64,000 bases of DNA from NCBI GenBank assembly GCA_964016885.1, contig OZ024740.1, positions 47,492,001-47,556,000 of the forward strand, given 5' to 3'. Source of the stretch: Eledone cirrhosa (lineage: Eukaryota). The position numbers and the translations under genes are program-made. The notes beneath the pieces are model-generated. The model was not told the DNA's origin. It did not search any database and was given only the letters and a program-made list of their open reading frames with translations. This document shows, piece after piece, positions 2,269 through 62,794 of the stretch (positions within the stretch are counted from its first letter, which is position 1; every line of letters starts with the position of its first letter).

Positions 2269-2307
2269 CTAATGGAACGTAGTAAACGGGATGCAGTCGG
2301 AGAAAAG
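2269..2307 (-). CDS. 39-nt exon with an RxxR furin-like site
   Basis: TTTTTCAG acceptor and GTAAGT donor; phase-2 reading FSPTASRLLRSI. Confidence 0.6.
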   Translation of the reverse strand, partial: LFSDCIPFTTFH

Positions 2308-7518: not shown

Positions 7519-7663
7519 CATCTATATTAAAACTATATATATATATATATATAGTAATAATAATAAATTTGAAGACTAAAATCCAAAGAGGGCTCGATAA
7601 GGATAAATATATATCAAATATATAAGAACCGTAGAGCAAATATTTATCAAAATAACAGATTAA

Positions 7664-7714
7664 AGTTTAAGCAAAGAATCGCTGCTTTCACCCTTATCGG
7701 GATCTTCTGAAACT
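7664..7714 (-). ncRNA. Hammerhead-like motif (family B) in pLTR
   Basis: Same fold as 5903-5953, sense to the PLE ORF. Confidence 0.65.
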
Positions 7715-8655
7715 AACAAAGTCAATCTGTAAACGCAGAAGTGGATATTTTAAAAAACGTTGCAACCGGAGGAAGACAGGAAGACGATACTTTGGTTCGT
7801 GGAAACGTTCCCTCGCAAAGAACGGGAAAAAACGAATATAATACGTCATTAATTGGAGCGGTGAAAAACAATTACGCGCAAAGACAGAACCACGTTTATG
7901 GTATAAAAGAGGTCGTAGACCAATGTTCTCTTAGGTGGTTCATAGAGACGTTCTCTGGCAATGAACGAAAAAAACGAAGATAATACGTCATATGTGGAGC
8001 GTAGAGAACAATTGCGCGCAAAGACAAAGCCACGTAAATTGTATAGCAGAAGTCGTAGACTAAAATTCTAACTAGGAGACCGAAAGAATCTCCGCTTCAG
8101 AGTTAAGAACAAAGTAAATAAATACAATACAGAGATAATAGAAATTAAATAAATACATACACGCATACAAATACGTACATACACAAGCATACGCGAAAAT
8201 ACTTACCTTGGGTATACAAAACCACGCACATATAAATATGTGTGTGTGTGTGTATGCGTGTATACAAATAAATAAATAATTAAATAAACGTATATAAATA
8301 AATAAATACGTATATAACAAGCGCACACACATACCTACATGTAAATACACAAATGTTCGGAGACGTAAGTCAACCAAAACACGAAGTACACATATACACA
8401 TACCCTACATACGTACGAACCTGCATACTCACACAGACGCAAAACACCCGTATACACATAACCAAACCATATGTACCAGAAAATATAAAATTATACGCCA
8501 TAACATATACAATCAAATATACGTACGTGAAGGTATACGTACCTTCACAAAACATACAAGTAATATATACTTACCTATGCAAATAAGTAATGGTATAAAC
8601 AAAACATATACTTAGCTACCACATCAAGACGTAAAATATCCACGTAAAGATCGTA

Positions 8656-10819
8656 CTATCCGTTAGGGTATAACGTGGGGCTGTAATACAGGAAAGTTTT
8701 GTGCAATTTATGTTTACAAGCCGAAATTGCCTCAGATTTTTTAAGATGTGGTCTGTGGCGTAGTATTTCCAGGGCCTCAGCAGCGCAGAGGTCACATGGT
8801 CTTTTATTTCCGTTATACGATCTAGCCCTAGCTAGGATCTCCCAGTGTAACTTTTATTGGGTGTGGTTGTCTTTTAGGCTCCAGATATAAGCTGAAAGTG
8901 ACGTCATATGGATTCAAGCAGCGTCTTTACCTGCATACCTATTCTTTTCGTTACCCTCTAGGGTAACGAAAAGAATAGGTATGCAGGTAAAGACGCTGCT
9001 TGAATCTATTGGCGGTTAACCCATTGTAGGCCCTACGGGACGTGGGTGTTTCAACCTTACATTTGTAGACAATGTTACTAGATAGGCATTTCCCGGATAG
9101 GGGGCAATCAACCCGATTCCTACAATTACAGTTAGTACTAACTACAAGGTTGCACGTGTTCCTACGGCTAGGGAGTTTAGCTAAATTTGAAGCTGTGATG
9201 TTATGTGCAAGGTTAGGAGTCGTAGAGTAAGAAATTTTAATAGTATTTCTATTAAAACTTTTACTATATTTATGTGTAGGGGGGAAAATGCTTCGTAATA
9301 AGGGAAAGAAAGATCTTAGCTAATGGTGTGGCCACCTCCATATTATATGGTGGGTTATACCAACAAATGCGACGGGATCTATTTCTTCTAGGTCTATTTT
9401 CGTACTCTGTATATGCTACCTAATCGGCAAATCCACTCCGAGCAAGAGCTTCATTGTAATAAGTGGAATGGTCGTTGAAAATATGCTCGTTAGTAGATAG
9501 ACGGGAAAGCCTCAACGAAACGTTTCTTACCAGGTTCTTGGCTATGCTGGCAGGATGGTTGGAATGCTTACTTATGTAATTAAGCGTATCATTCGGCTTT
9601 CTATACGGGTAATACAACCCATTCAATAAATTGAGGGTAACGTCGAGGTAATTAACGACCGAGAGATTGGCCTCAACCTGTATAGAGAGGTTGAAGCCTT
9701 TAAAGAAGGCTGTGAGTTCTTTTCTGAACCTGTCGCAAGCACGAAGTCCGCACTTAGTCATGGTCAAAAGACCATCATCACGGTACAAACCACCGCCCGC
9801 GTTGGGGAATTCGTCCTGATAGAGAAAAGAAGGAAAAGGCCGATAAGATCAGTAACCTCCACAGAATCGCTGGCGCCCATACTCACATCGAATTGGGTAC
9901 TATTGGATTTTTTAATCCAAATAGAGTCGTCGAAATTAACCACCGACTTACGAGCATTGATGATGACATCAACTTCGAAATCCTTAACCATTGTGAGTGT
10001 TTTAGCGAAATTGATAGCTCTAAGGAGAAGTGGTAAAGTGATGGAGGAGTAGTAATTGTTGACGTCGAATTGGATAAAACGGCAATGTTCCTTGTTACAT
10101 ATGCCGTTGAACCAATCAATCACCGCGAAAGAATTATTCCACAGTGCAAGAGGGGCCAAACTTCTAATTTCAGGTATAATTCTATGAAGAATCGTTTTAC
10201 TAAGTCTATATAAATCGGACTTCGTAGGGTTAATAAGCCGAATAGAGGGGTTGTTCGGAAAATTGGATTTGTGATCCTTCAGGGTAAAGTGGGGAGAAAT
10301 AGGGTCCAGAGGTTCGGTCCGGTCGAGGATGTTGAGATCAGATGTGATTTTAAACCCATCATCGTTGATTCCATTGATGACGCACCGATTAGTTTTACGG
10401 TAATCCTTAGTTACAGCATTATGTAGTAGTTGATGGTAAGTACTGCGCTCCACTTGATATAGGTTGCCAGTTTTGTCGGAATGGACGTGCACGGCATTAG
10501 AATCCTTAATAGAACGAATTCTATTCTTCAGGTCCTGCTGGAAGGAATTGCACCTATTCCGAAATTTGATACTCCGTATGAGTTCCAAGACATCATTTTC
10601 GAAGGGTAGCAATGCTGGGTTACATGGGGGGTTATTATAGGTTTTAAACCCAAATTTATCCTGTTTGTTGTCTGCTTTTCGCGGATTATCGAAATAAAAG
10701 GCACGCCAACGCAACCGTTTAATGAACGCGTCTGTTTTCTGTATCAGGAGTTTCAGGTATGTTTTCCTGCTTGGTACGGGTATGTTCTTTGTAGAAATAT
10801 TCAGATGTTGTTTCTGCAT
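8656..10819 (-). pseudogene. PLE polyprotein (reverse transcriptase + GIY-YIG), frameshifted
   Basis: RLRWRAFYF, SDKTGN, IRLINPTKS, QFDVNNYYSSI, FDVSMGA, YRDDGL, YLDVTL, HSNHP; C-terminal WEILARARSY..CDLC; several frameshifts and stops. Confidence 0.92.
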
Positions 10820-10972
10820 GATTAATATAAGTCAATAGAGTGCTCAACCGAGGGAACCAAATAAAATAATAATAAATTTGAAGACTAAAATCCAAAGAGG
10901 GCACGATAAGGATAAATATATATCAAATATATAAGAACCGTAGAGCAAATATTTATCAAAATAACAGATTAA

Positions 10973-11023
10973 AGTTTAAGCAAAGAATCGCTGCTTTCAC
11001 CCTTATCGGGATCTTCTGAAACT
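10973..11023 (-). ncRNA. Hammerhead-like motif (family B) in 5' pLTR
   Basis: Identical to 7664-7714; ~150 nt upstream of the ORF ATG. Confidence 0.65.
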
Positions 11024-12508
11024 AACAAAGTCAATCTGTAAACGCAGAAGTGGATATTTTAAAAAACGTTGCAACCGGAGGAAGACAGGAAGACGATACT
11101 TTGGTTCGTGGAAACGTTCCCTCGCAAAGAACGGGAAAAAACGAATATAATACGTCATTAATTGGAGCGGTGAAAAACAATTACGCGCAACGACAGAACC
11201 ACGTTTATGGTATAAAAGAGGTCGTAGACCAATGTTCTCTTAGATGGTTCATAGAGACGTTCTCTGGCAATGAACGAAAAAAACGAAGATAATACGTCAT
11301 ATGTGGAGCGTGGAGAACAATTGCGCGCAAAAACAAAGCCACGTAAATTGTATAGCAGAAGTCGTAGACTAAAATTCAAACTAGGAGACCGAAAGAATCT
11401 CCGCTTCAGAGTTAAAAACAAAGTAAATAAATACAATACAGAGCTAATAGAAATTAAATAAATACATACACGCATACAAATACGTACATACACAAGCATA
11501 CGCAAAACACTTACCATAGGTATACAAAACCACGCACATATAAATATGTGTGTGTGTGTATGCGTGTATACAAATAAATAAATAATTAAATAAACGTATA
11601 TAAATAAATAAATACGTATATAACAAGCGCACACACATGCCTACATGTAAATACACAAATGTTCGGAGACGTAAGTCAACCAAAACATGAAGTACACATA
11701 TACACATACCCTACATACGTACGAACCTGCATACTCACACAGACGCAAAACACCCGTATACACATAACCAAACCATATGTACCAGAAAATATAAAATTAT
11801 ACGCCATAACATATACAATCAAATATACGTATGAGAAGGTATACGTACCTTCACAAAACATACAAGTAATATATACTTACCTATGCAAATAAGTAATGGT
11901 ATAAACAAAACATATACTTAGCTACCACATCAAGACGTAAAATATCCACGTAAAGATCGTACTATCCGTTAGGGTATAACGTGGGGCTGTAATACAGGAA
12001 AGTTTTGTGCAATTTAATACCTGTGGTAAGTGTTTTCGCGTCTGCTTGTGTATGTACGTATTTGTATTCGTGTATGTATTTATTTAATTTCTATTACCTC
12101 TGTATTGTATTTATTTACTTTGTTCTGAACTCTGAAACGGAGATTCTTTTGGTCTCCTAGTTAGATTTTAGTCTACGACTTCTGCTATACAATTTACGTG
12201 ACTTTGTCTTTGCGCGCAATTGTTCTCCACGCTCCACATATGACGTATTATCTTCGTTCTTTTCGTTCATTGCCAGAGAACGTCTCTATGAACCACCTAA
12301 GAGAACATTGGTCTACGACCTCTTTTATACCATAAACGTGGTTCTGTCTTTGCGCGTAATTGTTTTCCACCGCTCCAATTAATGACGTATTATATTCGTT
12401 TTTTCCCGTTCTTTGCGAGGGAACGTTTCCACGAACCAAAGTATCGTCTTCCTGTCTTCCTCCGGTTGCAACGTTTTTTAAAATATCCACTTCTGCGTTG
12501 ACTTTGTT

Positions 12509-12559
12509 AGTTTCAGAAGATCCCGTTAAGGGTGAAAGCAGCGATTCTTTGCTTAAACT
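12509..12559 (+). ncRNA. Hammerhead-like motif (family B) in inverted pLTR
   Basis: Same fold as 5903-5953. Confidence 0.65.
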
Positions 12560-12575
12560 TTAATCTGTTATTTTA

Positions 12576-12656
<81 letters not shown>

Positions 12657-18708: not shown

Positions 18709-19100
18709 AGGGCGGTAGATTGGCAGTATCGGTAGAGGGTTGGACGCCATGCTTTCTTCATAGTTACGTCCCTTTACGATCTGAGTTCAAATCCCGTTGA
18801 GGTTAACTTTGCCTTTCATCCTTAAGTGGTCAATAAAATAAAGTACCAGTAATGTACTGGGTAATTGCTGGCCTTGTGCCAAAAATAGAAACAATTATAT
18901 ATTTGTTCCCGGTGGATTAACAGTATCGGTAGAGTGTCAGACGCCAGGCTTTGCAGCATAGAGTTACGGCCCTTTACGATCTGAGTTCAAATCCTGTCGA
19001 GGTTAACTTTGCCTTTCATCCTTACGGGGTCGATAAAATAAAGTACTAGTAATGCACTAGGATTATTGCTCGCCTTGTGCCAACAGTAGGGACAATTATA
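18709..19100 (+). mobile_element. Two tandem tRNA-SINEs (family 1)
   Basis: A/B-box-like TGGCAGTATCGG and GAGTTCAAATCC plus family core; copies ~18709-18898 and ~18909-19100. Confidence 0.85.
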
Positions 19101-19966: not shown

Positions 19967-19993
19967 ATGCAGGATGAGTGATTACTGCGTTCA
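19967..19993 (-). CDS. 27-nt phase-1 micro-exon xNAVITHPA
   Basis: Strong TTTTTTTTATATTTCCAG acceptor and GTAAGT donor; phase fits exon 4594. Confidence 0.65.
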
Positions 19994-30119: not shown

Positions 30120-30204
30120 GAGATTAGGATGTTTCTAAACGTGCTGACGTATATGTGTGTGCGTATGTACATATACATACATTACAAGCAGATAATACAC
30201 ACAT

Positions 30205-30422
30205 CAAGGACGACATAAAACACAAAACTAGATAATACATACATCTAGGACCACGTACAACACACAAGTAGGTAATACATGCATGTAGGACCGCATATAA
30301 CACACAAGCAGGTAATACAAACATGTAGGACCACATACAACACACAAGCAGGTAATATTCACATCTAGGACCACATACAACACACCAAGCGGGTAATACA
30401 TACATCTAGGACCACATACAAC
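30205..30422. repeat. ~39-bp minisatellite, ~5-6 copies
   Basis: Repeating TAGGACCACATACAACACACAAGCAGGTAATACATACATC-like unit 3' of the CRE relic. Confidence 0.85.
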
Positions 30423-30504
30423 AAAAGGCATCGAAAGGGGTGGACAAACAAGCTACTACCAGAGCAAAAGATAACAATATCACGGGGAGCACTGGGAAAC
30501 CTCT

Positions 30505-34740: not shown

Positions 34741-34779
34741 CTGTGAATGTAGGTTTAATTGTAGGTGTAATGGTGGGCA
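34741..34779 (-). CDS. Micro-exon 39 nt xPTITPTIKPTFT
   Basis: CAG / GTAAGT, phase 1-1. Confidence 0.85.
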
Positions 34780-35745: not shown

Positions 35746-35784
35746 CTTTTTTTTCAGGGTTTATGTGACATAAATTGGCTGCCA
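35746..35784 (-). CDS. Micro-exon 39 nt xAANLCHINPEKK
   Basis: TAG / GTAAGT, phase 1-1. Confidence 0.75.
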
Positions 35785-37186: not shown

Positions 37187-37225
37187 GCCCTATTGCAGGC
37201 TTTGGGACAAATGGACTTAGGGCCA
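37187..37225 (-). pseudogene. Micro-exon 39 nt xALSPFVPKPAIG with broken donor
   Basis: Acceptor intact; donor reads ATAAAT. Confidence 0.6.
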
Positions 37226-39300: not shown

Positions 39301-39339
39301 ATCTCGGTGCGTGAATAGGGATTAATTGTGGAGGTACCA
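39301..39339 (-). pseudogene. Micro-exon 39 nt xVPPQLIPIHAPR with broken donor
   Basis: Acceptor intact; donor CTAAGT; displaced GTAAGT duplicates at 39224-29 and 39244-49. Confidence 0.65.
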
Positions 39340-40479
39340 CTAGAATCAAGAGAACAAAACATCAGAGTGAAATATATTCTTAAGACAACTGCAATGCATA
39401 AGGTTAACAGAATTGTTGTAACATTGATCACTTCAGTTTTTCCCAGTATTCTTATATATGTAAGTATACGTATATAATAATAGTTGAGGCGTAGTTCATG
39501 AAACTTGCATACTAGTATCTCTTTAAGGTGAACCTCTACATAGATAAATGCCTCCGGGTTAAGTGCAGAGGTTGTATTTTACGTATAGCAAGATATAGCT
39601 TATTACTTATTGGCGCGGTGAAGATGCCCCTCTAAATATCACGGGTTTACAGGAAATTACGTCAAGTGAAGATATTATCAATGTTGTGCAGTTCAATTTT
39701 GACTATTTGATGGCTACATTGGCAATCTTCCAGCAGGAAATTTCTTGTCTATTTTGGTCTCATTCATAACGTAACAAAGGAAAGTTTGTTTTCGCTATGG
39801 TCTCACATGCCATATTTACCACTCCGTAAAATTGATATCACTATCGAAGTATAAACTTTGTATTTAATACGTAATGACACGTTAGTATTATTTAGATGAT
39901 ATTGGGGGCTTCTTCCAAAGCAAGTATTTGCTGCCGCATTTCTGTTCTAAGTATTTCCCTGTGTAAAAAAATTAAATAATGATTATTGTTGCAACATTAA
40001 GTACACTGTATCATTTTATGACGTTCTGTATTGGACGTGTCCTGATCTATTCTCCGTGTAGATTCGTTGTTTATTTCAATAAGTATTTCTTTCTCCTTTG
40101 AGTTATTTTGAAAGGTGTGTATACTTATAATTAGGAGATTGAGTAAGTCCTCATATTCCCGTAATTTGAGTTATGAGACAAATAACAAAATGAAACTTGA
40201 AACATAAAATATTCTAGATTGAAGCATGGTTTAGTTAAACTAGAAACAGGTGTACCTTTTTAAGTGACCACATATAGATAATATCAACTACATCTTTGTC
40301 ATTGACTGAAGTAGAATCTATTGTTTATCAACATAAACAGCATAAATAATGTGTTTGGATGTTATCTCTTATTATACCATTTATAACTTGGGTGTTTTCG
40401 GAATATGCGTCTTCAATAGAATTCTCTTTTAAGCCATAAATGACATATTGTACAAAATAATTTTGTAATATCTACTTAC

Positions 40480-40518
40480 GTCCTGGTGGAGGAATTGCTG
40501 TAAATGTATTAGTGGGCA
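40480..40518 (-). CDS. Micro-exon type A 39 nt xPTNTFTAIPPPG
   Basis: TTCTAG / GTAAGT, phase 1-1. Confidence 0.85.
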
Positions 40519-41083
40519 CTAGAATCAGTAGAAGAAAATATGATGCTGCAAAACGTAATATCAGAGTCTAACAACTTACCTCTACAAAGAAACCCATCTC
40601 AAGAGACAAATCTCTCCAGATTATGCGTCGAAACAGTATTTTATTTCATTTTCTGTTTAAATCTAACTCAAGGTCATACTTATTACCGTCTTTCCATATC
40701 GAAATGAGTCAACAATAATTGGCATGGCTGAAGATACATTTCAATATTGCTGAATTAAGTGGTTTGCTAAAGATATCGTCAATACAGTTCGATTATCTCT
40801 AGAACAATAGCAATATTTTGCATTTAACCAGCAGCATAAACTTATGCTTGTTCTTACCTGATTCATCAAGTAACCATGGAAATTTATTTTGCATTTTTTA
40901 TGCTGTTAATATAAGTAGCATATCTATTTCTAATTAAGACATCGAATGAACCCTGCATTTTCTCCTTGCTGTATGTGGCGACACAAATCACATAATAGGA
41001 GATAAATTCTTGAAAACATAATTGGAGATAGTTTAGTTAAACTATAAACACATCTTTGTATATTGATATGACCAAATATAGAT

Positions 41084-41268
41084 AATTGTTTCTACTTTAG
41101 GCACAAGGCCAGCAATTAACCAGTGCATTACTGGTACTTTATTTTATCGACCCCGTAAGGATGAAAGGCAAAGTCAACCTCGGCAGAATTTGAACTCAGA
41201 TCGTAAAGGGACGTAACTATGCTGGAAAGCATGGCGTCCGACCCTCTACCGATACTGCCAATCCACCG
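41084..41268 (-). mobile_element. tRNA-SINE (family 1) present in one tandem unit only
   Basis: Other units show the empty site GATAATACCAGCC. Confidence 0.92.
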
Positions 41269-41423
41269 AATACCAGCCACATCGTTGCCATTGACTGGTG
41301 TGGGATTTGTTATTACACCATTTCTAACTAGGTTGTGGTCAACATCTGCACCTACAATCAGATCATAACATTTTACATATTAGATGAAACATATTACCAA
41401 ATAATTTTATAATTTTCACTTAC

Positions 41424-41462
41424 TTGCTGGTAAAATGTTCATTGGTGCAGGAGGTGCTACCA
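41424..41462 (-). CDS. Micro-exon type B 39 nt xVAPPAPMNILPA
   Basis: TTCTAG / GTAAGT, phase 1-1. Confidence 0.85.
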
Positions 41463-42904
41463 CTAGAAACAAACGAAAAATATCAAACTGAAGTATGTTT
41501 TAAATACTATAGAAGCGTAAAGAGAATTCCTGACAAGGATCAAATCAGTTTCTCTTGGAATAGTTACATCTGTTTTATTAGTATTTAGCTCGAACATCTG
41601 TAGCCACATATATGCAGTAAAAGGGGAGACGTTATTTTATAGGTTAATAGTTTACTTTCTCTTCCGGGCGATCCTGTTCATAAAGAGATCTCATCAGAAC
41701 ACATGTAAATGCATTTTGCCTCATTATCTCCTTTTATTACCGTTTAGCAGTTTGAAAGCTGAAGTAACAATAATTGGTTTGGCTGAAAATGTACCTCAAT
41801 GTCGCATGTGTAAAAAGATGGTGTTTCATCAAGTTTTTATCAATGCTGGGCAGTTCGCTTTTCTTTAATTCAATGACAATGTTTGCTCTCTGCCGCTTGT
41901 GTACTTTAATTTATAGTTTGGCTAAAGTCTCCCATACCCTATTCTCATTCTGTAAAGTTAACATCATTGTCGATGTATATATGTTGAATTTAAGTGCTGA
42001 GGTTGTATTTTACGTATAGCATGATATAGATTATTACTTATTGGCGCGGTGAAGATGCCCCTCTAAATATCACGGGTTTACAGGAGATTACGTCAAGTGA
42101 AGATATTATCAATGTTGTGCAGTTCAATTTTGACTATTTGATGGTTACATTGGCAATCTTCCAGCTGGAAATTTCTTGTCTATTTTGGTCTCATTCATAA
42201 CGTAACAAAGGAAAGTTTGTTTTCGCTATGGTCTCACATGCCATATTTACCACTCCGTAAAATTGATATCACTATCGAAGTATAAACTTTGTATTTAATA
42301 CGTAATGACACGTTAGTATTATTTAGATGATGTTGGGGACTTTTTCCAAAGCAAGTATTTGCTGCCGCATTTCTGTTCTAAGTATTTTCCCTGTGTAAAA
42401 AAATTAAATAATGATTATTGTTGCAACATTAAGTACACTGTATCATTTTATGACGTTCTGTATTGGACATGTCCTGATCTATTCTCCGTGTAGATTCGTT
42501 GTTTACTTCAATAAGTATTTCTTTCTCCTTTGAGTTATTTTGAAAGGTGTGTATACTTATAATTAGGAGATTGAGTAAGTTCTCAAATTCCCGTAATTTG
42601 AGTTATGAGACAAATAACAAAATGAAAATTGAAACATAAAATATTTTAGCATGGTTTAGTTAAACTATAAACAGGTGTACCTTTTTAAGTGACCAAATAT
42701 AGATAATATCAACTACATCTTTGTCATTGACTGAAGTGGAATCTATTGTTTATCAACATAAACAGCATAAATAATGTGTTTGGATGCTATCTCTTATTAT
42801 ATCATTTATAACTTGGGTGTTTTCGGAATATGCGTCTTCAATAGAATTCTCTTTTAAGCCATAAATGACATATTGTACAAAATAATTTTGTAATATCTAC
42901 TTAC

Positions 42905-42943
42905 GTCCTGGTGGAGGAATTGCTGTAAATGTATTAGTGGGCA
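42905..42943 (-). CDS. Micro-exon type A 39 nt xPTNTFTAIPPPG
   Basis: TTCTAG / GTAAGT, phase 1-1. Confidence 0.85.
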
Positions 42944-43661
42944 CTAGAATCAGTAGAAGAAAATATGATGCTGCAAAACGTAATATCAGAGTCTAACAAC
43001 TTACCTCTACAAAGAAACCCATCTCAAGAGACAAATCTCTCCAGATTATGCGTCGAACAGTAGTTTGTTTCATTTTCTGTTTAAATCTAACTCAAGATCA
43101 TACTTATTACCGTCTTTCATTATCGAAATGAGTCAACAATAATTGGCATGGCTGAAGATACGTTTCAATATTGCTGAATAACGTGGTTTTCTAAAGATAT
43201 CGTCAATGCAATACAATATCTCTAGAACAATAGCAATATTTTGCATTTAACAACCAGGATAAACTCCTGCTTGTTCTCACCGGATTCGTCATGTAGCCAT
43301 GTAAATTTATTTTTCATTTTTTATGCTGTTAATATAAATAGGATATCTATTTCTAATTAAGACATCAAATGAACCCTGCATTTTCTCCTTGCTGTATGTG
43401 GCGAGACAAATGACATAATAGGAAATAAATTCTTGAAAACATAATTGGAGATAGTTTAGTCAAACTATAAACAGATCTTTGTTTATTAATATGACCAAAT
43501 ATAGATAATACCAGCCACATCGTTTCCATTTACTGGTGTGGGATTTGTTATTACACCATTTCTAACTAGGTTGTGGTCAACATCTGCACCTACAATCAGA
43601 TGATAACATTTTACATATTAGATGAAAGATATTACCAAATAATTTTATAATTTTCACTTAC

Positions 43662-43703
43662 CACCTGGTGGTGCAATGGTGTATGTTACAGGAGGGGATA
43701 TCA
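43662..43703 (-). CDS. Micro-exon type B 42 nt xISPPVTYTIAPPG
   Basis: TTCTAG / GTAAGT, phase 1-1. Confidence 0.85.
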
Positions 43704-45153
43704 CTAGAAACAAAAGAAAAATATCAAACTGAAGTATGTTTTAAATACTGTAGAAGCGCAAAGAGAATTCCTGACAAGGATCAAATCAGTTTCTCTTAGG
43801 AATAGTTACATCTGTTTTATTAGTATTTGACTCGAACATCTGTAGCCACATATATGCAGTAAAAGGGGAGACGTTATTTTATAGGTTAATAGTTTACTTT
43901 CTCTTCCGGGCGACCCTGTTCATAAAGAGATCTCATCAGAACACATGTAAATGCATTTTGCCTCATTGTCTCCTTTTATTACCGTTTAGCAGTTTGAAAG
44001 CTGAAGTAACAATAATTGGTTTGGCTGAAAATGTACCTCAATGTCGCATGTGTAAAAAGATGGTGTTTCATCAAGTTTTTATCAATGCTGGGCAGTTCGC
44101 TTTTCTTTAATTCAATGACAATGTTTGCTCTTTGCCGCTTGTGTACTTTAATTTATAGTTTGGCTAAAGTCTCCCATACCCTATTCTCATTCTGTAAAAT
44201 TAACATCATTGTCGATGTATATATTTTGAATTTAAGTGCTGAGGTTGTATTTTACGTATAGCATGATATAGCTTATTACTTATTGGCGCGGTGAAGATGC
44301 CCCTCTAAATATCACGGATTTACAGGAAATTACGTCAAGTGAAGATATTATCAATGTTGTGCAGTTCAATTTTGACTATTTGATGGTTACATTGGCAATC
44401 GTCCAGCTGGAAATTTCTTGTCTATTTTGGTCTCATTCATAACGTAACAAAGGAAAGTTTGTTTTCGCTATGGTCTCACATGCCATATTTACCACTCCGT
44501 AAAATTGATATCACTATCGAAGTATAAACTTTGTATTTAATACGTAATGACACGTTAGTATTATTTAGATGATGTTGGGGACTTCTTCCAAAGCAAGTAT
44601 TTGCTGCCGCATTTCTGTTCTAAGTATTTTCCCTGTGTAAAAAAATTAAATAATGATTATTGTTGCAACATTAAGTACACTGTATCATTTTATGACGTTC
44701 TGTATTTGACGTGTCCTGATCTATTCTCCGTGTAGATTCGTTGTTTATTTCAATAAGTATTTCTTTTTCATTTGAGTTATTTTGAAAGGTGTGTATACTT
44801 ATAATTAGGAGATTGAGTAAGTCCTCAAATTCCCGTAATTTGAGTTATGAGACAAATAACAAAATGAAAATTGAAACATAAAATATTCTAGATTGGACCA
44901 TGGTTTAGTTAAACTATAAACAGGTGAGTATTTATAAGTGACCAAATATAGATAATATCAACCACATCTTTGTCATTGACTGAAGTGGAATCTATTGTTT
45001 ATCAATATAAACAGCATAAATAATGTGTTTGGATGCTATCTCTTATTATATCATTTATAACTTGGGTGTTTTCGGAATATGCGTCTTCAATAGAATTCTC
45101 TTTTAAGCCATAAATGACATATTGTACCAAATAATTTTGTAATATTTACTTAC

Positions 45154-45191
45154 GTCCTGGTGGAGTAATTCTGTAAATGTATTAGTGCGCA
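45154..45191 (-). pseudogene. Micro-exon type A, 38 nt (1-nt deletion or sequence error)
   Basis: Splice sites intact; lacks one base relative to the three 39-nt paralogs. Confidence 0.65.
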
Positions 45192-45909
45192 CTAGAATCA
45201 ATAGAAGAAAATATGATGCTGCAAAACGTAATATCAGAGTCTAACAACTTACCTCTTCAAAGAAACCCATCTCAAGAGACAAATCTCTCCAGATTATGCG
45301 TCGAAACAGTAGTTTGTTTCATTTTCTGTTAAATCTAACTCAAGATCATACTTATTACCGTCTTTCCATATCGAAATGACTCAACAATAATTGGCATGGC
45401 TGAAAATACGTTTCAATGTTGCTGAATTAAGTGGTTTGCTAAAGATATCGTCAATGCAATACAATATCTCTAGAACAATAGCAATATTTTGCATTTAACC
45501 ACCAGCATAAACTCATGCCTGTTCTCACCGGATTCGTCATGTAAACATGGAAATTTATTTTGCAATTTTTATGCTGTTAATATAAATAGGATATCTATTT
45601 CTAATTAAGACATCGAATGAACCCTGCATTTTCTCCTTGCTGTATGTGGCGACACAAATGACATAATAGGAAATAAATTATTGAAAACATAATTGGAGAT
45701 AGTTTAGTTAAACTATAAACAGATGTTTGTTTATTGATATGCCCAAATATAGATAATACCAGCCACATCGTTGCCATTGACTGGTGTGGGATTTGTTATT
45801 ACACCATTTCTAACTAGGTTGTGGTCAACATCTGCACCTACAATCAGATGATAACATTTTACATATTAGATGAAAGATATTACCAAATAATTTTATAATT
45901 TTCACTTAC

Positions 45910-45954
45910 ATCCTGGTGGTGGTGCAATGGTGTATGTTACAGGAGGGGATATCA
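45910..45954 (-). CDS. Micro-exon type B 45 nt xISPPVTYTIAPPPG
   Basis: TTCTAG / GTAAGT, phase 1-1. Confidence 0.85.
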
Positions 45955-47396
45955 CTAGAAACAAAAGAAAAATATCAAACTGAAGTATGTTTTAAATACT
46001 GTAGAAGCGCAAAGAGAATTCCTGACAAGGATCAAATCAGTTTCTCTTGGAATAGTTACATCTGTTTTATTAGTTTTTAGCTCGAACATCTGTAGCCACA
46101 TATATGCAGTAACAGGGGAGACGTTATTTTATAGGTTAATAGTTTACTTTCTCTTCCGGGCGACCCTGTTCATAAAGAGATCTCATCAGAACACATGTAA
46201 ATGCATTTTGCCTCATTGTCTCCTTTTATTACCGTTTAGCAGTTTGAAAGCTGAAGTAACAATAATTGGTTTGGCTGAAAATGTACCTCAATGTCGCATG
46301 TGTAAAAAGATGGTGTTTCATCAAGTTTTTATCAATGCTGGGCAGTTCGCTTTTCTTTAATTCAATGACAATGTTTGCTCTCTGCCGCTTGTGTACTTTA
46401 ATTTATAGTTTGGCTAAGGTCTCTCATACCCTATTCTCATTCTGTAAAATTAACATCCTTGTCGATGTATATATTTTGAATTTAAGTGCTGAGGTTCTAT
46501 TTTACGTATAGCATGATATAGATTATTACTTATTGGCGCGGTGAAGATGCCTCTCTAAATATCACGGGTTTACAGGAGATTACGTCAAGTGAAGATATTA
46601 TCAATGTTGTGCAGTTCAATTTTAACTATTTTATGGTTACATTGGCAATCTTCCAGCAGGAAATTTCTTGTCTATTTTGGTCTCATTCATAACGTAACAA
46701 AGGAAAGTTTGTTTTCGCTATGGTCTCACATGCCATATTTACCACTCCGTAAAATTGATATCACTATCGAAGTATAAACTTTGTATTTAATACGTAATGA
46801 CACGTTAGTATTATTTAGATGATGTTGGGGGCTTCTTCCAAAGCAAGTATTTGCTGCCGCATTTCTGTTCTAAGTATTTTCCCTGTGTAAAAAAATTAAA
46901 TAATGATTATTGTTGCAACATTAAGTACACTGTATCATTTTATGACGTTCTGTATTGGACATGTCCTGATCTATTCTCCGTGTAGATTCGTTGTTTACTT
47001 CAATAAGTCTTTCTTTCTCATTTGAGTTATTTTGAAAGGTGTGTATACTTATAATTAGGAGATTGAGTAAGTCCTAAAATTCCCGTAATTTGAGTTATGA
47101 GACAAATAACAAAATGAAAATTGAAACATAAAATATTTTAGCATGGTTTAGTTAAACTATAAACAGGTGTACCTTTTTAAGTGACCACATATAGATAATA
47201 TCAACTACATCTTTGTCATTGACTGAAGTGGAATCTATTGTTTATCAACATAAACAGCATAAATAATGTGTTTGGATGTTATCTCTTATTATACCATTTA
47301 TAACTTGGGTGTTTTCGGAATATGCGTCTTCAATAGAATTCTCTTTTAAGCCATAAATGACATATTGTACAAAATAATTTTGTAATATCTACTTAC

Positions 47397-47435
47397 GTCC
47401 TGGTGGAGGAATTGCTGTAAATGTATTAGTGGGAA
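47397..47435 (-). CDS. Micro-exon type A 39 nt xPTNTFTAIPPPG
   Basis: TTCTAG / GTAAGT, phase 1-1. Confidence 0.85.
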
Positions 47436-48154
47436 CTAGAATCAGTAGAAGAAAATATGATGCTGCAAAACGTAATATCAGAGTCTAACAACTTACCTCT
47501 ACAAAGAAACCCATCTCAAGAGACAAATCTCTCCAGATTATGCGTCGAAACAGTAGTTTGTTTCATTTTCTGTTTAAATCTAACTCAAGGTCATACTTAT
47601 TACCGTCTTTCCATATCGAAATGAGTCAACAATAATTGACATGGCTGAAGATACGTTTCAATATTGCTGAATTAAGTGGTTTGCTAAAGATATCGTCAAT
47701 GCAATACAATATCTCTAGAACAATAGCAATATTTTGCATTTAACCACCAGCATAAACTCATGCCTGTTCTCACCTGATTCGTCATGTAACCATGCAAATT
47801 TATTTTGCATTTTTTATGCTGTTAATATAAACAGGATATCTATTTCTAATTAAGACATCGAATGAACCCTATATTTTCTCCTTGTTGTATGTGGCGACAC
47901 AAATGACATAAAAGGAAATAAATTATTGAAAACATAATTGGAGATAGTTTAGTTATACTATAAACAGATCTTTGTTTATTAATATGCCCAAATATAGATA
48001 ATACCAGCCACATCGTTTCCATTGACTGGTGTGGGATTTGTTATTACACCATTTCTAACTAGGTTGTGGTCAACATCTGCACCTACAATCAGATGATAAC
48101 ATTTTACATATTAGATGAAACATATTACCAAATAATTTTATAATTTTCACTTAC

Positions 48155-48190
48155 TTGGTATATTGGCGTGTGGTACAGGAGGGACTACAA
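48155..48190 (-). CDS. Micro-exon type B 36 nt xVVPPVPHANIP
   Basis: TTCTAG / GTAAGT, phase 1-1. Confidence 0.85.
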
Positions 48191-49106
48191 CTAGAAACAA
48201 AAGAAAAATATCAAACTGAAGTATGTTTTAAATACTGTAGAAGCGTAAAGAGAATTCCTGACAAGGATCAAATCAGTTTCTCTTGCATAGTTACATCTGT
48301 TTTATTAGTATTTAGCTCGAACATCTGTAGTCACATATATGCAGTAAAAGGGGAGACGTTATTTTATAGGTTAATAGTTTACTTTCTCTTCCGGGCGACC
48401 CTGTTCTTAAAGAGATCTCATCAGAACACATGTAAATGCATTTGGTTTGGCTGAAAATGTACCTCAATGTCGCATGTGTAAAAAGATGGTGTTTCATCAA
48501 GTTTTTATCAATGCTGGGCAGTTCGCTTTTCTTTAATTCAATGACAATGTTTGCTCTCTGCCGCTTGTGTACTTTAATTTATAGTTTGACTAAAGTCTCC
48601 CATACCCTATTCTCATTCTGTAAAGTTAACATCATTGTCGATGTATATATTTTGAATTTAAGTGCTGAGGTTCTATTTTACGTATAGCATGATATAGCTT
48701 ATTACTTATTGGCGCGGTGAAGATGCCCCTCTAAATATCACGGGTTTACAGGAAATTACGTCAAGTAAAGATATTATCAATGTTGTGCAGTTCAATTTTG
48801 ACTATTTTATGGTTACATTGGCAATCTTCCAGCAGGAAATTTCTTGTCTATTTTGGTCTCATTCATAACGTAACAAAGGAAAGTTTGTTTTCGCTATGGT
48901 CTCACATGCCATATTTACCACTCCGTAAAATTGATATGACCAAATATAGATAATACCAGCCACATCGTTGCCATTGACTGGTGTGGGATTTGTTATTACA
49001 CCATTTCTAACTAGGTTGTGGTCAACATCTGCACCTACAATCAGATCATAACATTTTACATATTAGTTGAAACATATTACCAAATAATTTTATAATTTTC
49101 ACTTAC

Positions 49107-49142
49107 TTGGTATATTGGTGTGTGATTCAGGAGGAGCTACCA
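49107..49142 (-). CDS. Micro-exon type B 36 nt xVAPPESHTNIP
   Basis: TTCTAG / GTAAGT, phase 1-1. Confidence 0.85.
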
Positions 49143-49778
49143 CTAGAAACAAAAAAAAATATCAAACTGAAGTATGTTTTAAATACTGTAGAAGCGCGCA
49201 AAGAGAATTCCTGACAAGGATCAAATCAGTTTCTCTTGGAATAGTTACATCTGTTTTATTAGTATTTAGCTCGAACATCTGTAGCCACATATATGCAGTA
49301 AAAGGGGAGACGTTATTTTATAGGTTAATAGTTTACTTTCTCTTCCGGGCGACCCTGTTCTTAAAGAGATCTCATCAGAACACATGTAAATGCATTTTGC
49401 CTCATTGTCTCCTTTTATTACCGTTCAGCAGTTTGAAAGCTGAAGTAACAATAATTGGTTTGGCTGAAAATGTACCTCAATGTCGCATGTGTAAAAAGAT
49501 GGTGTTTCATCAAGTTTTTATCAATGCTGGGCAGTTCGCTTTTCTTTAATTCAATGACAATGTTTGCTCTCTGCCGCTTGTGTACTTTAATTCATAGTTT
49601 GACTAAAGTCTCCCATACCCTATTCTCATTCTGTAAAATTAACATCATTGTCGATGTATATATTTTGAATTTAATATGTAATGACGTGTTACGTTCTTGA
49701 ATATTTCTTAAGGGTAAATTTGATATTACATTTTAATTTTGTAGTATATAAATATGTGATATTGTAATATTTACTTAC

Positions 49779-49817
49779 GTCCTGTTGCGTGGAAGGGGGT
49801 TATTAGGGAAGTTGGCA
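49779..49817 (-). CDS. Micro-exon 39 nt xPTSLITPFHATG
   Basis: TTTAG / GTAAGT, phase 1-1. Confidence 0.85.
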
Positions 49818-51045
49818 CTAAAGGCAAGAGAATAAACTATCAAACTGGGGTATTTTTGGAATATAACAATATCTTTTCTACAAATCTAAGAAAAATTGCA
49901 GAAATAATGACAATTTCAGGTTCTCTCAACCTAGTTACATCTGTTTGTTCGCTATTTAGCTTCAATATCTGGGGGATTTTTTGCTAGGTAATTTGAACAT
50001 TTGTAGGTACATATATATATAGTAAAACTTGAGACGTAATTTCAGAAGCTAAGAGTTTAGTATCCCTTCAAGGTGAGCTTGTTCACTGATAGATGTCTTT
50101 GAATTACGTGCCGAGATAGCATTTTGCTTCATTCGATACATGTAAAGAAAGATATCCCTTATTACTTAAGAAGCTTATTCAACAAGAATTGGTCTCAGTT
50201 AAGATGTGTCTCTCAATTCTTTAGATCTAAATGAAATTACATCCAGTCAAGATATTATCAATGCTACACAGTTCGATCTCTCGAGCCAACAAAATTTCAT
50301 GACTGTTCTGGTTTAATTCATAATGTAACAATAGAGGTTTATCTTTTCGATATGGTCTCTCGCGTATGACGTGAGAGGCCATACCGAAAAATTGGTATCA
50401 CTGTTGAAGTGTAAACTTTGCATTTAATATATAGAGCAATATCAGTATTTTTTAAATGATGTTGGGAGCTTCTTCCAAAGCAAGTATTTGCTGCCGTAAA
50501 GTATTCTCCCTTGGTAAAGTATAAGTAATGATTATTGTTGCAACATTAAGTACACTGTATCATTTTATGACGTTCTGTATTGGACATGTCCTGATCTTTT
50601 CTCTGTGTAGATTCGTGGTTTATTTCAATAAGTATTTCTTTCTCCTTTGAGTTATTTTGAAAGGTGTGTATACTTATAATTAGGAGATTGAGTAAGTTCT
50701 CATATTCCCGTAATTCGAGTTGTGAGACAAAATGCATCATAAAACAGAAGTTCTTGAAACACATAAAATATTTTAGGTTGTAGCATAGTTTAGTTAAACT
50801 CGAAACATGTCAACATGTTTACGTGACCAAATACAGATAACATCAACTACATCTTTGCCATTGACTGGGGTAAAATCTGTTGTTTACCAACGTAATCAGG
50901 ATGAATTGTGTGTGTTTTAACATTATTTATTACTACACTATTTCTAACTAAGTAGTGGTCAGAATCGGCGCCTTCAATCAGGTTCTCATCACATTTTACA
51001 CAATATATGAAATATATTAACAAATAATTTTGTAATTTTACTTCC

Positions 51046-51080
51046 CTGTGCATGGACAGGCGTTTGTTAAGGAGGTAATA
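51046..51080 (-). pseudogene. Dead micro-exon (both splice sites lost)
   Basis: Sits at the homologous position between conserved intron flanks; donor GGAAGT, no AG, in-frame TAA. Confidence 0.5.
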
Positions 51081-51566
51081 CAAGGAGTGAGAGAGGGAAA
51101 TGTCAAACTGAAATATCGTTTGAAGATAACAGAAAAGCGTAATTATTGTCCTACAGTTCAGAGGAGTATTGCAATAATGATGATCATTTTAATTTCATAC
51201 AGATTAGTCACATACATTTTTTGCTGCTTAGTTTGAATATGTGTAGCCACGTATAAGAATGGAGGCGTAATTCCAGAGGTCAGCAAACTGCTGACCTCTG
51301 GAATTACGCCTCCATTCTTACGCCTTCATTTATTACTATCCTTCTGACTATTGTCTCTTAATAGACTTTTTGTGTTGATCAATTGTGTATTCTTATTGAT
51401 GTTAATTAGAGATAGAGAAATTTTAAAATCAGTATGTTCTCTTTATGGTGAATGATTAGAACTTTGACATTCGAAAAGAAAATTTTCTGAAGAATGTATT
51501 GACTTTTGTCATTTTTTACTTTATATATGAAATCTATTAACAAATAATTTTGTAATGTTTACTTAT

Positions 51567-51605
51567 GTCCTGGTGCACCGAGTGAGGTTAATAGAGGAGG
51601 TGACA
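51567..51605 (-). pseudogene. Micro-exon 39 nt xSPPLLTSLGAPG with ATAAGT donor
   Basis: Open frame, intact acceptor, GT->AT at donor. Confidence 0.65.
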
Positions 51606-51984: not shown

Positions 51985-52022
51985 TGCCTGTTGGGCGAAT
52001 GAGGTTTGATCTAGAAGATGCG
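51985..52022 (-). pseudogene. Micro-exon 38 nt (ASSRSNLIRPTG), 1 nt short
   Basis: TTCTAG / GTAAGT intact; length not a multiple of 3. Confidence 0.6.
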
Positions 52023-52995: not shown

Positions 52996-53033
52996 TTCCT
53001 GTTGGATAGATAAGGTTAATTGAGAAGATGCTA
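52996..53033 (-). pseudogene. Micro-exon 38 nt (ASSQ/NLIYPTG), 1 nt short
   Basis: AAG / GTAAGT; paralog of 51985-52022 with a different single-base gap. Confidence 0.55.
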
Positions 53034-54043: not shown

Positions 54044-54073
54044 ATCTTGGTCTGCCTAATTTTCTAGATACCA
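54044..54073 (-). CDS. Micro-exon 30 nt xVSRKLGRPR
   Basis: TTCTAG / GTAAGT, phase 1-1. Confidence 0.8.
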
Positions 54074-55953: not shown

Positions 55954-55992
55954 TAACTGATGGTTGAGCGGGGTTTGGTGGATTAGGTGCCA
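55954..55992 (-). CDS. Micro-exon 39 nt xAPNPPNPAQPSV
   Basis: TCTAG / GTAAGT, phase 1-1. Confidence 0.85.
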
Positions 55993-56193
55993 CTAGATTG
56001 AGAGATGAAAATAGTTTTATAGACAACAGTAAATCAAAAATAATTATGTAGCAGTTCTTCCTCTTGCAATGAGTAAATATCCGAAAAATACTTCATTTTT
56101 TAAAGTAACTCAAAATGCCGTGTTTATAGAATCAAAATAATTTTAATTTAGTTTAAGTTGATTAGTCTAGACTTGTATCTATCTTGTATCTAT

Positions 56194-56430
56194 CTTCCGT
56201 AATTATTATGCTTCATCCTTGATATTAGCAGTATAATTGTTAGTCAGTGTCTTATATTCAATTCCTTTGTTGTAAATCAGGTGGAGAGATAGAATAAGTG
56301 AGAGACAAAAGAAAAGACAAAAAGATAACTGACTAAGAGCTAGTGATATATCTCTTTCTATTTTTCTGATACATAAATCTATAAGAAAATAGAGAGAGAT
56401 CTGGGACAATAACCTAGTATCATATGTTTT

Positions 56431-56516
<86 letters not shown>

Positions 56517-56772
56517 TCTCTCTCTCTCTCTTTTTCTTCCGTAATTATTATGCTTCATCCTTGATATTAGCAGTATAATTGTTAGTCAGTGTCTTATATT
56601 CAATTCCTTTGTTGTAAATCAGGTGGAGAGATAGAATAAGTGAGAGACAAAAGAAAAGACAAAAAGATAACTGACTAAGAGCTAGTGATATATCTCTTTC
56701 TATTTTTCTGATACATAAATCTATAAGAAAATAGAGAGAGATCTGGGACAATAACCTAGTATCATATGTTTT

Positions 56773-56829
<57 letters not shown>

Positions 56830-56866
56830 TTCTCTCTCTCTCTCACTCTCTCTCTCTCTCTCTCTT

Positions 56867-56916
<50 letters not shown>
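56194..56916. repeat. 342-bp direct tandem duplication ending in (CT)n
   Basis: 56194-56535 repeated from 56536; unique parts appear identical. Confidence 0.9.
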
Positions 56917-59695: not shown

Positions 59696-59737
59696 AGTAT
59701 AGAGGCAACAAATTTACGTGGTTTGCAACGTTACTGA
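59696..59737 (-). CDS. Micro-exon 42 nt xSNVANHVNLLPLY
   Basis: CAG / GTAAGT, phase 1-1; paralogous to 62153-62194. Confidence 0.8.
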
Positions 59738-62152: not shown

Positions 62153-62194
62153 TGTGAAATGGTGACCCATTTATTTGGTTTCCAATATTGCCCA
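62153..62194 (-). CDS. Micro-exon 42 nt xGNIGNQINGSPFH
   Basis: TTTTTTCTCTCAATTCAG / GTAAGT, phase 1-1. Confidence 0.8.
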
Positions 62195-62776: not shown

Positions 62777-62794
62777 TAGCTTCAGCCTCGGGAT
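62777..62794 (-). CDS. Micro-exon 18 nt xPEAEA
   Basis: TTTTTGTTGACAG / GTAAGT, phase 1-1. Confidence 0.7.

What the first reader, a model, noticed from the sequence alone, without database searches (positions are those of the whole stretch)
41424..49142. Exons diverge much faster than their introns inside the tandem array
Seen: the five type-B exons occupy the same position in near-identical repeat units but encode VAPPAPMNILPA, ISPPVTYTIAPPG, ISPPVTYTIAPPPG, VVPPVPHANIP and VAPPESHTNIP. By hand count, 48155-48190 vs 49107-49142 differ at 6 of 36 nt, all in codons that change the amino acid. The adjacent ~144 intronic nt differ at about 3 positions. Length differences (36/36/39/42/45) are all whole codons. 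Type-A exons in the same units stay almost invariant. Inference: diversifying selection on type-B modules, or intron homogenisation by gene conversion that spares exons, as seen in toxin, immune and gamete-recognition genes. The pattern also indicates the exons were functional recently.
Basis: partly seen in the sequence, partly recalled or inferred. Interest (0 to 1): 0.85.

Follow-up and report, generated by a model that had tools for sequence, protein, structure and literature searches.

The report
Octopod micro-exon gene with hypervariable cassettes
An octopod gene predicted to encode a secreted protein is predicted to be built from about 30 tiny exons, and in its repeated blocks most exon copies differ about ten times more than the near-identical introns around them, likely because gene conversion keeps copying the introns while selection keeps the encoded peptides different.

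Summary
The type-B exon column carries 20 substitutions in 36 sites where the intron rate predicts 2; no intron window exceeds 10. The array is part of a single-locus, minus-strand octopod gene spanning at least 152 kb. It has a predicted signal peptide and 30 further phase-1 exons of 18-51 nt, all whole codons, and its 3' end is lost in an assembly gap. A second tandem block 55-85 kb downstream repeats the pattern in two more exon families (strongly in C, over short flanks only in D). Introns are mosaic between units (11 of 21 informative sites conflict with the best tree), and synonymous exon sites also outrun the introns, so exons are spared from conversion. Amino-acid changes are in excess (dN/dS about 3.4 for B, about 2 pooled), but only at p 0.04-0.10. 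One type-A copy is frameshifted, and 7 relatives are broken in all. Splicing, expression and function are predicted, not shown. The evolutionary signature is known (opsin exon 5, venom genes). A schistosome-MEG-like architecture in a cephalopod did not turn up in three literature searches.

The parts
49107..49142 (-). type-B micro-exon B1 (36 nt, phase 1)
48155..48190 (-). type-B micro-exon B2 (36 nt)
   Evidence: spanned by an X1 contig
45910..45954 (-). type-B micro-exon B3 (45 nt)
43662..43703 (-). type-B micro-exon B4 (42 nt)
   Evidence: spanned by X2 and X3 contigs
41424..41462 (-). type-B micro-exon B5 (39 nt)
47397..47435 (-). type-A micro-exon A1 (39 nt)
45154..45191 (-). type-A copy A2, 38 nt, out of frame, splice sites intact
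42905..42943 (-). type-A micro-exon A3 (39 nt)
40480..40518 (-). type-A micro-exon A4 (39 nt)
39559..49674 (.). recent tandem array: four units of about 2.25 kb plus one partial unit; introns 2.4-3.4% apart and mosaic between units
41082..41268 (.). very high-copy SINE-like insertion present in one unit only
62777..62794 (-). 18-nt exon reading PEAEA; predicted end of an acidic pro-region
   Evidence: role inferred
62153..62194 (-). 42-nt in-frame micro-exon
59696..59737 (-). 42-nt in-frame micro-exon
55954..55992 (-). 39-nt in-frame micro-exon
54044..54073 (-). 30-nt in-frame micro-exon, older relative of A and B
52996..53033 (-). degenerate relative: 38 nt, AAG acceptor
51985..52022 (-). degenerate relative: 38 nt, splice sites intact
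51567..51605 (-). degenerate relative: 39 nt, no GT donor
51040..51084 (-). relic of a related exon without canonical splice sites (limits approximate)
49779..49817 (-). 39-nt in-frame micro-exon, older relative of A and B
39301..39339 (-). degenerate relative: 39 nt, no GT donor
37187..37225 (-). degenerate relative: 39 nt, no GT donor
35746..35784 (-). 39-nt in-frame micro-exon
34741..34779 (-). 39-nt in-frame micro-exon
19967..19993 (-). 27-nt in-frame micro-exon
2269..2307 (-). 39-nt in-frame micro-exon; the model continues outside the window on both sides (6 coding exons upstream, 7 downstream)

Best explanation
The array lies inside a predicted micro-exon gene for a likely secreted octopod protein, in which gene conversion likely keeps re-copying the introns of the tandem units while selection likely keeps the type-B exon copies distinct and favours amino-acid change in them. 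Shown: the exon-bounded peak of divergence, the mosaic introns, the whole-codon lengths, and the repeat of the pattern in a second array of the same gene model. Inferred: each phase-1 exon is a cassette of 6-17 codons that is born by tandem duplication, can be skipped without breaking the frame, and dies by splice-site loss or frameshift. The predicted product has a 26-residue signal peptide, a charged pro-region ending in X-Pro/X-Ala dipeptides, and a string of Pro/Ala/Val/Thr/Ile/Asn/His-rich modules with one Cys. My guess at its role is a gland secretion that acts on another organism: salivary or venom about 35%, reproductive about 25%, skin or immune about 25%, structural about 15%. No call bears on this split.
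For: Peak: 20 vs 2 expected, 0 of 2000 shuffles; it is exon-bounded, the nearest variable intron columns being 12 and 47 nt upstream and 34 nt downstream. Conversion: 11 of 21 informative intron sites conflict with the best quartet tree; simulations without conversion give means 0.4-1.7 and at most 7 in 3 x 400 runs. Sparing: 5 synonymous changes in families B, C and D vs 0.6-0.85 expected at intron rates, p about 0.001. Selection: 28 nonsynonymous vs about 2 expected at intron rates; codon positions 14/13/6, p 0.043; dN/dS about 3.4 in B. Replication: family C 8 of 36 vs 13 of 778, p 2.5e-7; family D 8 of 33 vs 2 of 103 after trimming, p 2e-4; an older exon pair 18 of 39 vs 17 of 82, p 0.005. 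Gene: an untrained splice rule gives 28 of 32 calls that are 3n and open in phase 1 within the span, vs 5 of 41 elsewhere; 31 exons read 383 codons without a stop, hydrophobic core at residues 10-21 and Ala at -3 and -1.
Against: dN over dS is not significant at 0.05 by site counting (B p 0.051-0.059; pooled p 0.06-0.10). 3 of the 5 synonymous changes share a codon column with replacements; without them the excess over introns is not significant (p 0.14-0.21). D is significant only after dropping 12 ragged edge columns (14 of 115 before) and not with wide flanks; C2 vs C3 p 0.08 and B3 vs B4 p 0.22. 3 relatives are frameshifted (2 with canonical splice sites) and 4 lack a splice site, as a decaying gene would also show. 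The gene span was drawn after seeing the calls, and 2 of the 28 are repeat-derived. The first coding exon is one of 13 candidates, chosen for nearness, a TATA box and hydropathy. No homologue was found (weak search), so there is no outgroup.
Confidence: 0.6

Rival explanations
1. Old exons are spared mechanically: once the B copies had drifted apart, sequence mismatch stopped conversion tracts at the exon, and no selection for diversity is needed.
For: Introns are mosaic; synonymous sites outrun introns; dN/dS is not formally above 1.
Against: Third positions are the least changed (14/13/6, p 0.043); indels are in frame; the peak coincides with the exon in three families but not in family A; some cause must start the divergence exactly there.
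Confidence: 0.17
2. The units are simply young duplicates, and strong positive selection alone drove 17 replacements into exon B; conversion is incidental.
For: 28 nonsynonymous changes vs about 2 expected; most synonymous changes sit beside replacements and could be multinucleotide hitch-hikers.
Against: Intron sites support all three quartet trees, 10/7/4; older relatives show the same exon-below-flank identity, 48% vs 65%, though these flanks include splice signals.
Confidence: 0.13
3. The exons are a mutational hotspot, or receive templated patches, in a gene that is now decaying.
For: 7 broken relatives, A2 among them; CCA runs in B3 and B4 can slip; no terminal exon was found.
Against: The transition:transversion ratio in exons (15:21) matches introns (56:58), p 0.45; few CpG; exon A has the same GC content and is quiet; no donor longer than 15 nt in 664 kb; no stop in any B, C or D copy.
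Confidence: 0.08
4. The exon differences are assembly errors.
For: Tandem arrays are hard to assemble, and the gene runs into a gap.
Against: Short-read contigs span B4 and B2 with no listed exon difference, and shared segments have about 3-4 times the depth of single-copy flanks; errors would not respect codons.
Confidence: 0.02

Closest known systems
Schistosoma micro-exon genes (MEGs) (PMC4350168, part 1 of the text and passages; PMC4015677 and bioRxiv 10.1101/2023.06.21.545858, passages)
   Same: Coding region made of very short symmetrical exons in long introns, signal peptide, exon duplication, raised dN/dS.
   Different: MEGs are described as restricted to flatworms or to Schistosomatidae, with 10-20 exons (mostly 15 nt) and introns up to 5 kb. 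This gene is in an octopod, has at least 31 coding exons (mostly 33-42 nt) over at least 152 kb, and shows no tested homology; exon skipping is unproven.
Divergence peak under gene conversion: primate red/green opsin exon 5 (PMC3924837, passages, citing Teshima and Innan 2008)
   Same: Introns homogenised by conversion and a peak of divergence in one exon, read as selection against conversion.
   Different: There it is between two genes; here it is among tandem cassettes inside one gene, with five copies and three exon families.
Snake venom gene families, e.g. Echis SVMP genes (PMC4963849, passages; the PLA2 papers of Nakashima 1993 and 1995 seen only as reference titles)
   Same: Paralogous introns 88-99% identical while the proteins are 85% identical.
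   Different: Folded enzymes in multigene families, and a far smaller contrast than the roughly tenfold one here.
Xenopus magainin and caerulein precursor genes (PMC3731216, passages)
   Same: Secreted precursors with tandem peptide-encoding exons.
   Different: Their duplicated exons are nearly identical, like type A here; they lack the hypervariable type, and this protein has no regular dibasic sites between modules (4 in 383 residues).
Nephila flagelliform silk gene; caseins and tropoelastin (recalled; one search found no paper)
   Same: Homogenised iterated introns (silk); symmetric short exons with birth, skipping and loss (casein, elastin).
   Different: Structural proteins; not checked here.

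Membership tests
Schistosoma-type micro-exon gene (MEG) | Most of the coding sequence in very short exons (3-81 nt in the 2023 annotation) | tested here: met
   All 31 predicted coding exons are 18-51 nt; only 13 of the 30 internal ones are 36 nt or less, so a stricter cut-off that I recall from DeMarco 2010 (not held) would fail.
Schistosoma-type micro-exon gene (MEG) | Symmetrical exons (multiples of 3, same phase) | tested here: met
   30 of 30 modelled internal exons are 3n and phase 1 (partly by construction); untrained control 28 of 32 vs 5 of 41.
Schistosoma-type micro-exon gene (MEG) | N-terminal signal peptide | tested here: inconclusive
   Hydropathy peak and Ala at -3/-1 over three predicted exons; no signal-peptide predictor was run and the first exon is a choice among 13 candidates.
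Schistosoma-type micro-exon gene (MEG) | Isoforms made by exon skipping | not testable with these tools
   Needs transcripts; the frame allows any skip without a junction stop (first two bases of 24 exons).
Schistosoma-type micro-exon gene (MEG) | Flatworm origin or sequence homology to a MEG family | tested here: not met
   The genome is an octopod's (neighbouring exon 98% identical to an Octopus sinensis protein); 0 of 27 exon frames match Pfam (weak for such short pieces). It works like a MEG but is not filed as one.
Divergence peak under gene conversion (Teshima-Innan signature) | Ongoing or past conversion between copies | tested here: met
   11 of 21 informative sites off the best tree; at most 7 in simulations.
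Divergence peak under gene conversion (Teshima-Innan signature) | Local peak of divergence at a coding target | tested here: met
Divergence peak under gene conversion (Teshima-Innan signature) | Exons group by orthology and introns by species | not testable with these tools
   No related genome is held for G000.
Positively selected coding region | dN/dS significantly above 1 | tested here: inconclusive
   About 3.4 (B) and about 2 (pooled); p 0.043-0.10 by test.
Venom or defence peptide precursor | Gland expression and processed bioactive peptides | not testable with these tools
   No expression or proteome data; modules are not bounded by dibasic sites.

The most novel reading that the evidence does not exclude
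Octopods independently evolved a schistosome-MEG-like diversity generator: one secreted-protein gene whose 30 or more phase-1 peptide cassettes are duplicated, diversified under positive selection against a converting intron scaffold, and spliced combinatorially into a large library of secreted variants used against prey, microbes or mates.
Probability: 0.3. Interest if true: 0.85.

Novelty: new variant of a known kind. Interest (0 to 1): 0.6.

Why it matters
A gene made only of 18-51 nt exons over more than 150 kb is easily missed by gene finders, so cephalopod secretomes may hold an unannotated class of fast-evolving peptide genes. If exon skipping is confirmed, the MEG design, described as flatworm-specific, arose again in a mollusc. 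The array also offers an unusually sharp test case, with a built-in control (type A homogenised, type B divergent in the same unit), for how selection holds exon diversity against gene conversion.

Tried and rejected
No RNA holder listed; this says nothing on expression. RAD-seq run X4 gave almost no depth outside the SINE. Paralogue searches in the own genome found only this locus plus one 170-bp stray copy of the second coding exon 75 kb upstream. A protein search with an alignment of 9 early exons gave 214 candidates, none at E up to 10; the profile was poor, so this is weak. Pfam: 0 of 27 exon frames; of 96 long ORFs scanned (of 103 listed, 664 kb) the hits inside the gene span were reverse transcriptase or GIY-YIG types. 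Rejected 5' models: a 99-nt exon at 103744-103842 with a stop (the in-frame acceptor gives 39 nt), and a 12-nt exon at 175297 with a split ATG (a sesquipedalian-like gene lies between). The 18-nt calls at 66835 and 66372 were dropped as parts of a dispersed repeat. No terminal exon could be identified beyond the gap. No hypermutator spectrum and no templated donor. Literature searches for octopus/microexon/cephalopod, cephalopod/tandem exon duplication/secreted and the silk precedent gave 0 papers; micro-exon/mollusc/secreted/signal peptide gave 8 listings, all on schistosomes, flatworms or human parasites. The library lacks most subscription papers, and no supplements were read; octopod gene models in supplements could already hold this gene. 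PMC7656900 (passages) had nothing on it.
Full report
OBSERVATION. The array spans 39559-49674: four units of about 2.25 kb and one partial unit. With the four full units aligned (partial unit left out, one 187-bp SINE cut out), introns show 116 minimum substitutions in 2095 columns and units are 2.4-3.4% apart. Exon B shows 20 in 36 columns against 2.0 expected (p 6e-14); exon A shows 3 in 38 (p 0.35). The worst of 1990 intronic windows has 10, and the best window in 2000 shuffles has 12. With all five copies, 9 of 10 pairs are significant; B3 vs B4 is not. The peak stops at the splice sites. Two corrections: one of the six B1/B2 differences is a synonymous step and one lies in a split codon, and type-A copy A2 is 38 nt and out of frame. 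Contigs from one short-read sample span B4 and B2 with no listed exon difference; the other three copies were not among the pieces shown, and the sample may be the assembly's own.

WHAT THE ARRAY BELONGS TO. The window is G000:C1:47492001-47556000 of a 3.0-Gb genome. A neighbouring sesquipedalian-like exon is 98% identical to an Octopus sinensis protein and 92% to one of Argonauta hians, so the animal is an octopod. I scanned 664 kb. An untrained rule (pyrimidine tract, YAG, GTAAGT within 12-60 nt) makes 32 minus-strand calls between window coordinates -45260 and 110600, of which 28 are whole codons and open in phase 1; 5 of 41 calls elsewhere or on the other strand are. The span was drawn after seeing the calls, and 2 of the 28 are repeat-derived and were dropped. 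The model has a first coding exon at G000:C1:47602538-47602577, about 115 nt below a TATA-like box, and 30 further exons of 18-51 nt: 5 upstream of the window, 18 in it, 7 downstream. In order they read 383 codons without a stop, with one Cys and no later hydrophobic segment. Residues 10-21 are hydrophobic, with Ala at 24 and 26 and then three lysines, as in a signal peptide (inferred; no predictor run). A charged region follows, ending in the 18-nt exon that reads PEAEA; such X-Pro/X-Ala runs are dipeptidyl-peptidase-trimmed spacers in insect venom and yeast pheromone precursors (recalled). The 24 later exons are 20% Pro, then Ala, Val, Thr, Ile, Asn, His. The 3' end runs into a 200-N gap. 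Searches of the own genome found no second locus. Seven relatives of A and B between 37187 and 53033 are frameshifted or lack a splice site, so exons are born and die here.

REPLICATION. A second tandem block lies 55-85 kb downstream of the array. Family C (G000:C1:47476915, 47455345, 47450720) has 8 changes in 36 exon columns against 13 in 778 flanking columns (p 2.5e-7); C2 vs C3 alone is not significant. Family D (47472369, 47465448, 47458619) has 8 in 33 against 2 in 103 (p 2e-4), after I dropped 12 ragged columns at the edge of homology (14 in 115 before); with wide flanks D shows no excess. An older exon pair in the pro-region differs at 18 of 39 against 17 of 82, and 12 members of the A/B family are 48% identical in exons and 65% in flanks that include splice signals.

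MECHANISM. First, the introns are mosaic: informative sites support the three quartet trees 10, 7 and 4 times; simulation without exchange gives at most 7 conflicting sites in 1200 runs, means 0.4-1.7. Conversion or unequal crossing-over is therefore shown. Second, exons are probably spared: 5 synonymous changes in B, C and D against 0.6-0.85 expected at intron rates (p about 0.001), but 3 of the 5 share a codon column with replacements, and the other 2 alone are not significant. Third, replacements are in excess: in B 17 of 19 changes are nonsynonymous (dN/dS about 3.4, p 0.051-0.059); pooled 28 of 33 (about 2, p 0.06-0.10); by codon position 14/13/6 (p 0.043). A purely old or neutral exon would not spare third positions. 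The mutation spectrum equals that of the introns, exon A has the same GC content and stays quiet, and no templated donor was found. I therefore favour conversion plus selection (0.6) over mechanical sparing (0.17), positive selection alone (0.13), a hotspot in a decaying gene (0.08) and assembly error (0.02). That the exons are spliced, skipped, translated and secreted is inferred throughout.

COMPARISON. The signature is that described for primate opsin exon 5 (PMC3924837, passages) and resembles venom gene families with conserved introns (PMC4963849, passages). The architecture works like that of schistosome MEGs: short symmetrical exons, signal peptide, raised dN/dS, described as restricted to flatworms (PMC4350168, part 1 and passages; PMC4015677; bioRxiv 10.1101/2023.06.21.545858). 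It is not a member: wrong phylum, longer exons, no homology found. Frog peptide precursors have tandem exons too, but nearly identical ones (PMC3731216, passages). Searches for a cephalopod or molluscan case found none, in a library that lacks most subscription papers; supplements were not read. Two earlier notes of this scan describe homogenised introns around one-codon exons in other eukaryotes; they are unchecked and add only an analogy.

VERDICT. Real, strong and repeated within the gene; known in kind as an evolutionary pattern; apparently undescribed as a MEG-like gene in an octopod; function unproven. Interest 0.6.

Noticed in passing
L010:2629-3291 (+), about 46 kb upstream of the first coding exon: Exon of a sesquipedalian-like PH-domain gene, 98% identical to an Octopus sinensis protein; a synteny anchor for finding the orthologue.
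   Followed up: partly
L053:283-5481 (-): A 1733-codon open frame, Gln/Ser-rich with long poly-Gln runs and no Pfam match; likely a large exon of another gene.
   Followed up: no
L012:7651-7819 (-): A 170-bp stray copy (88%) of the second coding exon and its acceptor, 75 kb upstream, with a weaker donor.
   Followed up: partly
L012:1297-1308 (-): A 12-nt stretch with strong splice signals; first taken for a split start codon, then set aside; it may belong to another gene.
   Followed up: partly
L005:6606-6631 (-): A short upstream ATG frame and a second GTAAGT donor 68 nt before the chosen first donor; an alternative first exon or an upstream ORF.
   Followed up: no
window 41082-41268: SINE-like element in one unit only, with enormous read depth; further copies at 18713, 18910, 55750 and 59779.
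   Followed up: partly
L017:4540-4739: A 200-N assembly gap inside the second tandem block, about 450 bp before a D-type exon would be expected.
   Followed up: partly
window 7556-8710, 10865-12016, 12017-12583: A 98% direct duplication and a 96% inverted partial copy of an element with two 140-bp internal repeats.
   Followed up: no
L015 (whole): Three long reverse-transcriptase frames lie around the D-type exon copies; retroelements may have helped the duplications.
   Followed up: no
window 56189-56880 and 30184-30423: A 342-bp two-copy tandem repeat and a 40-bp six-copy minisatellite inside introns.
   Followed up: no
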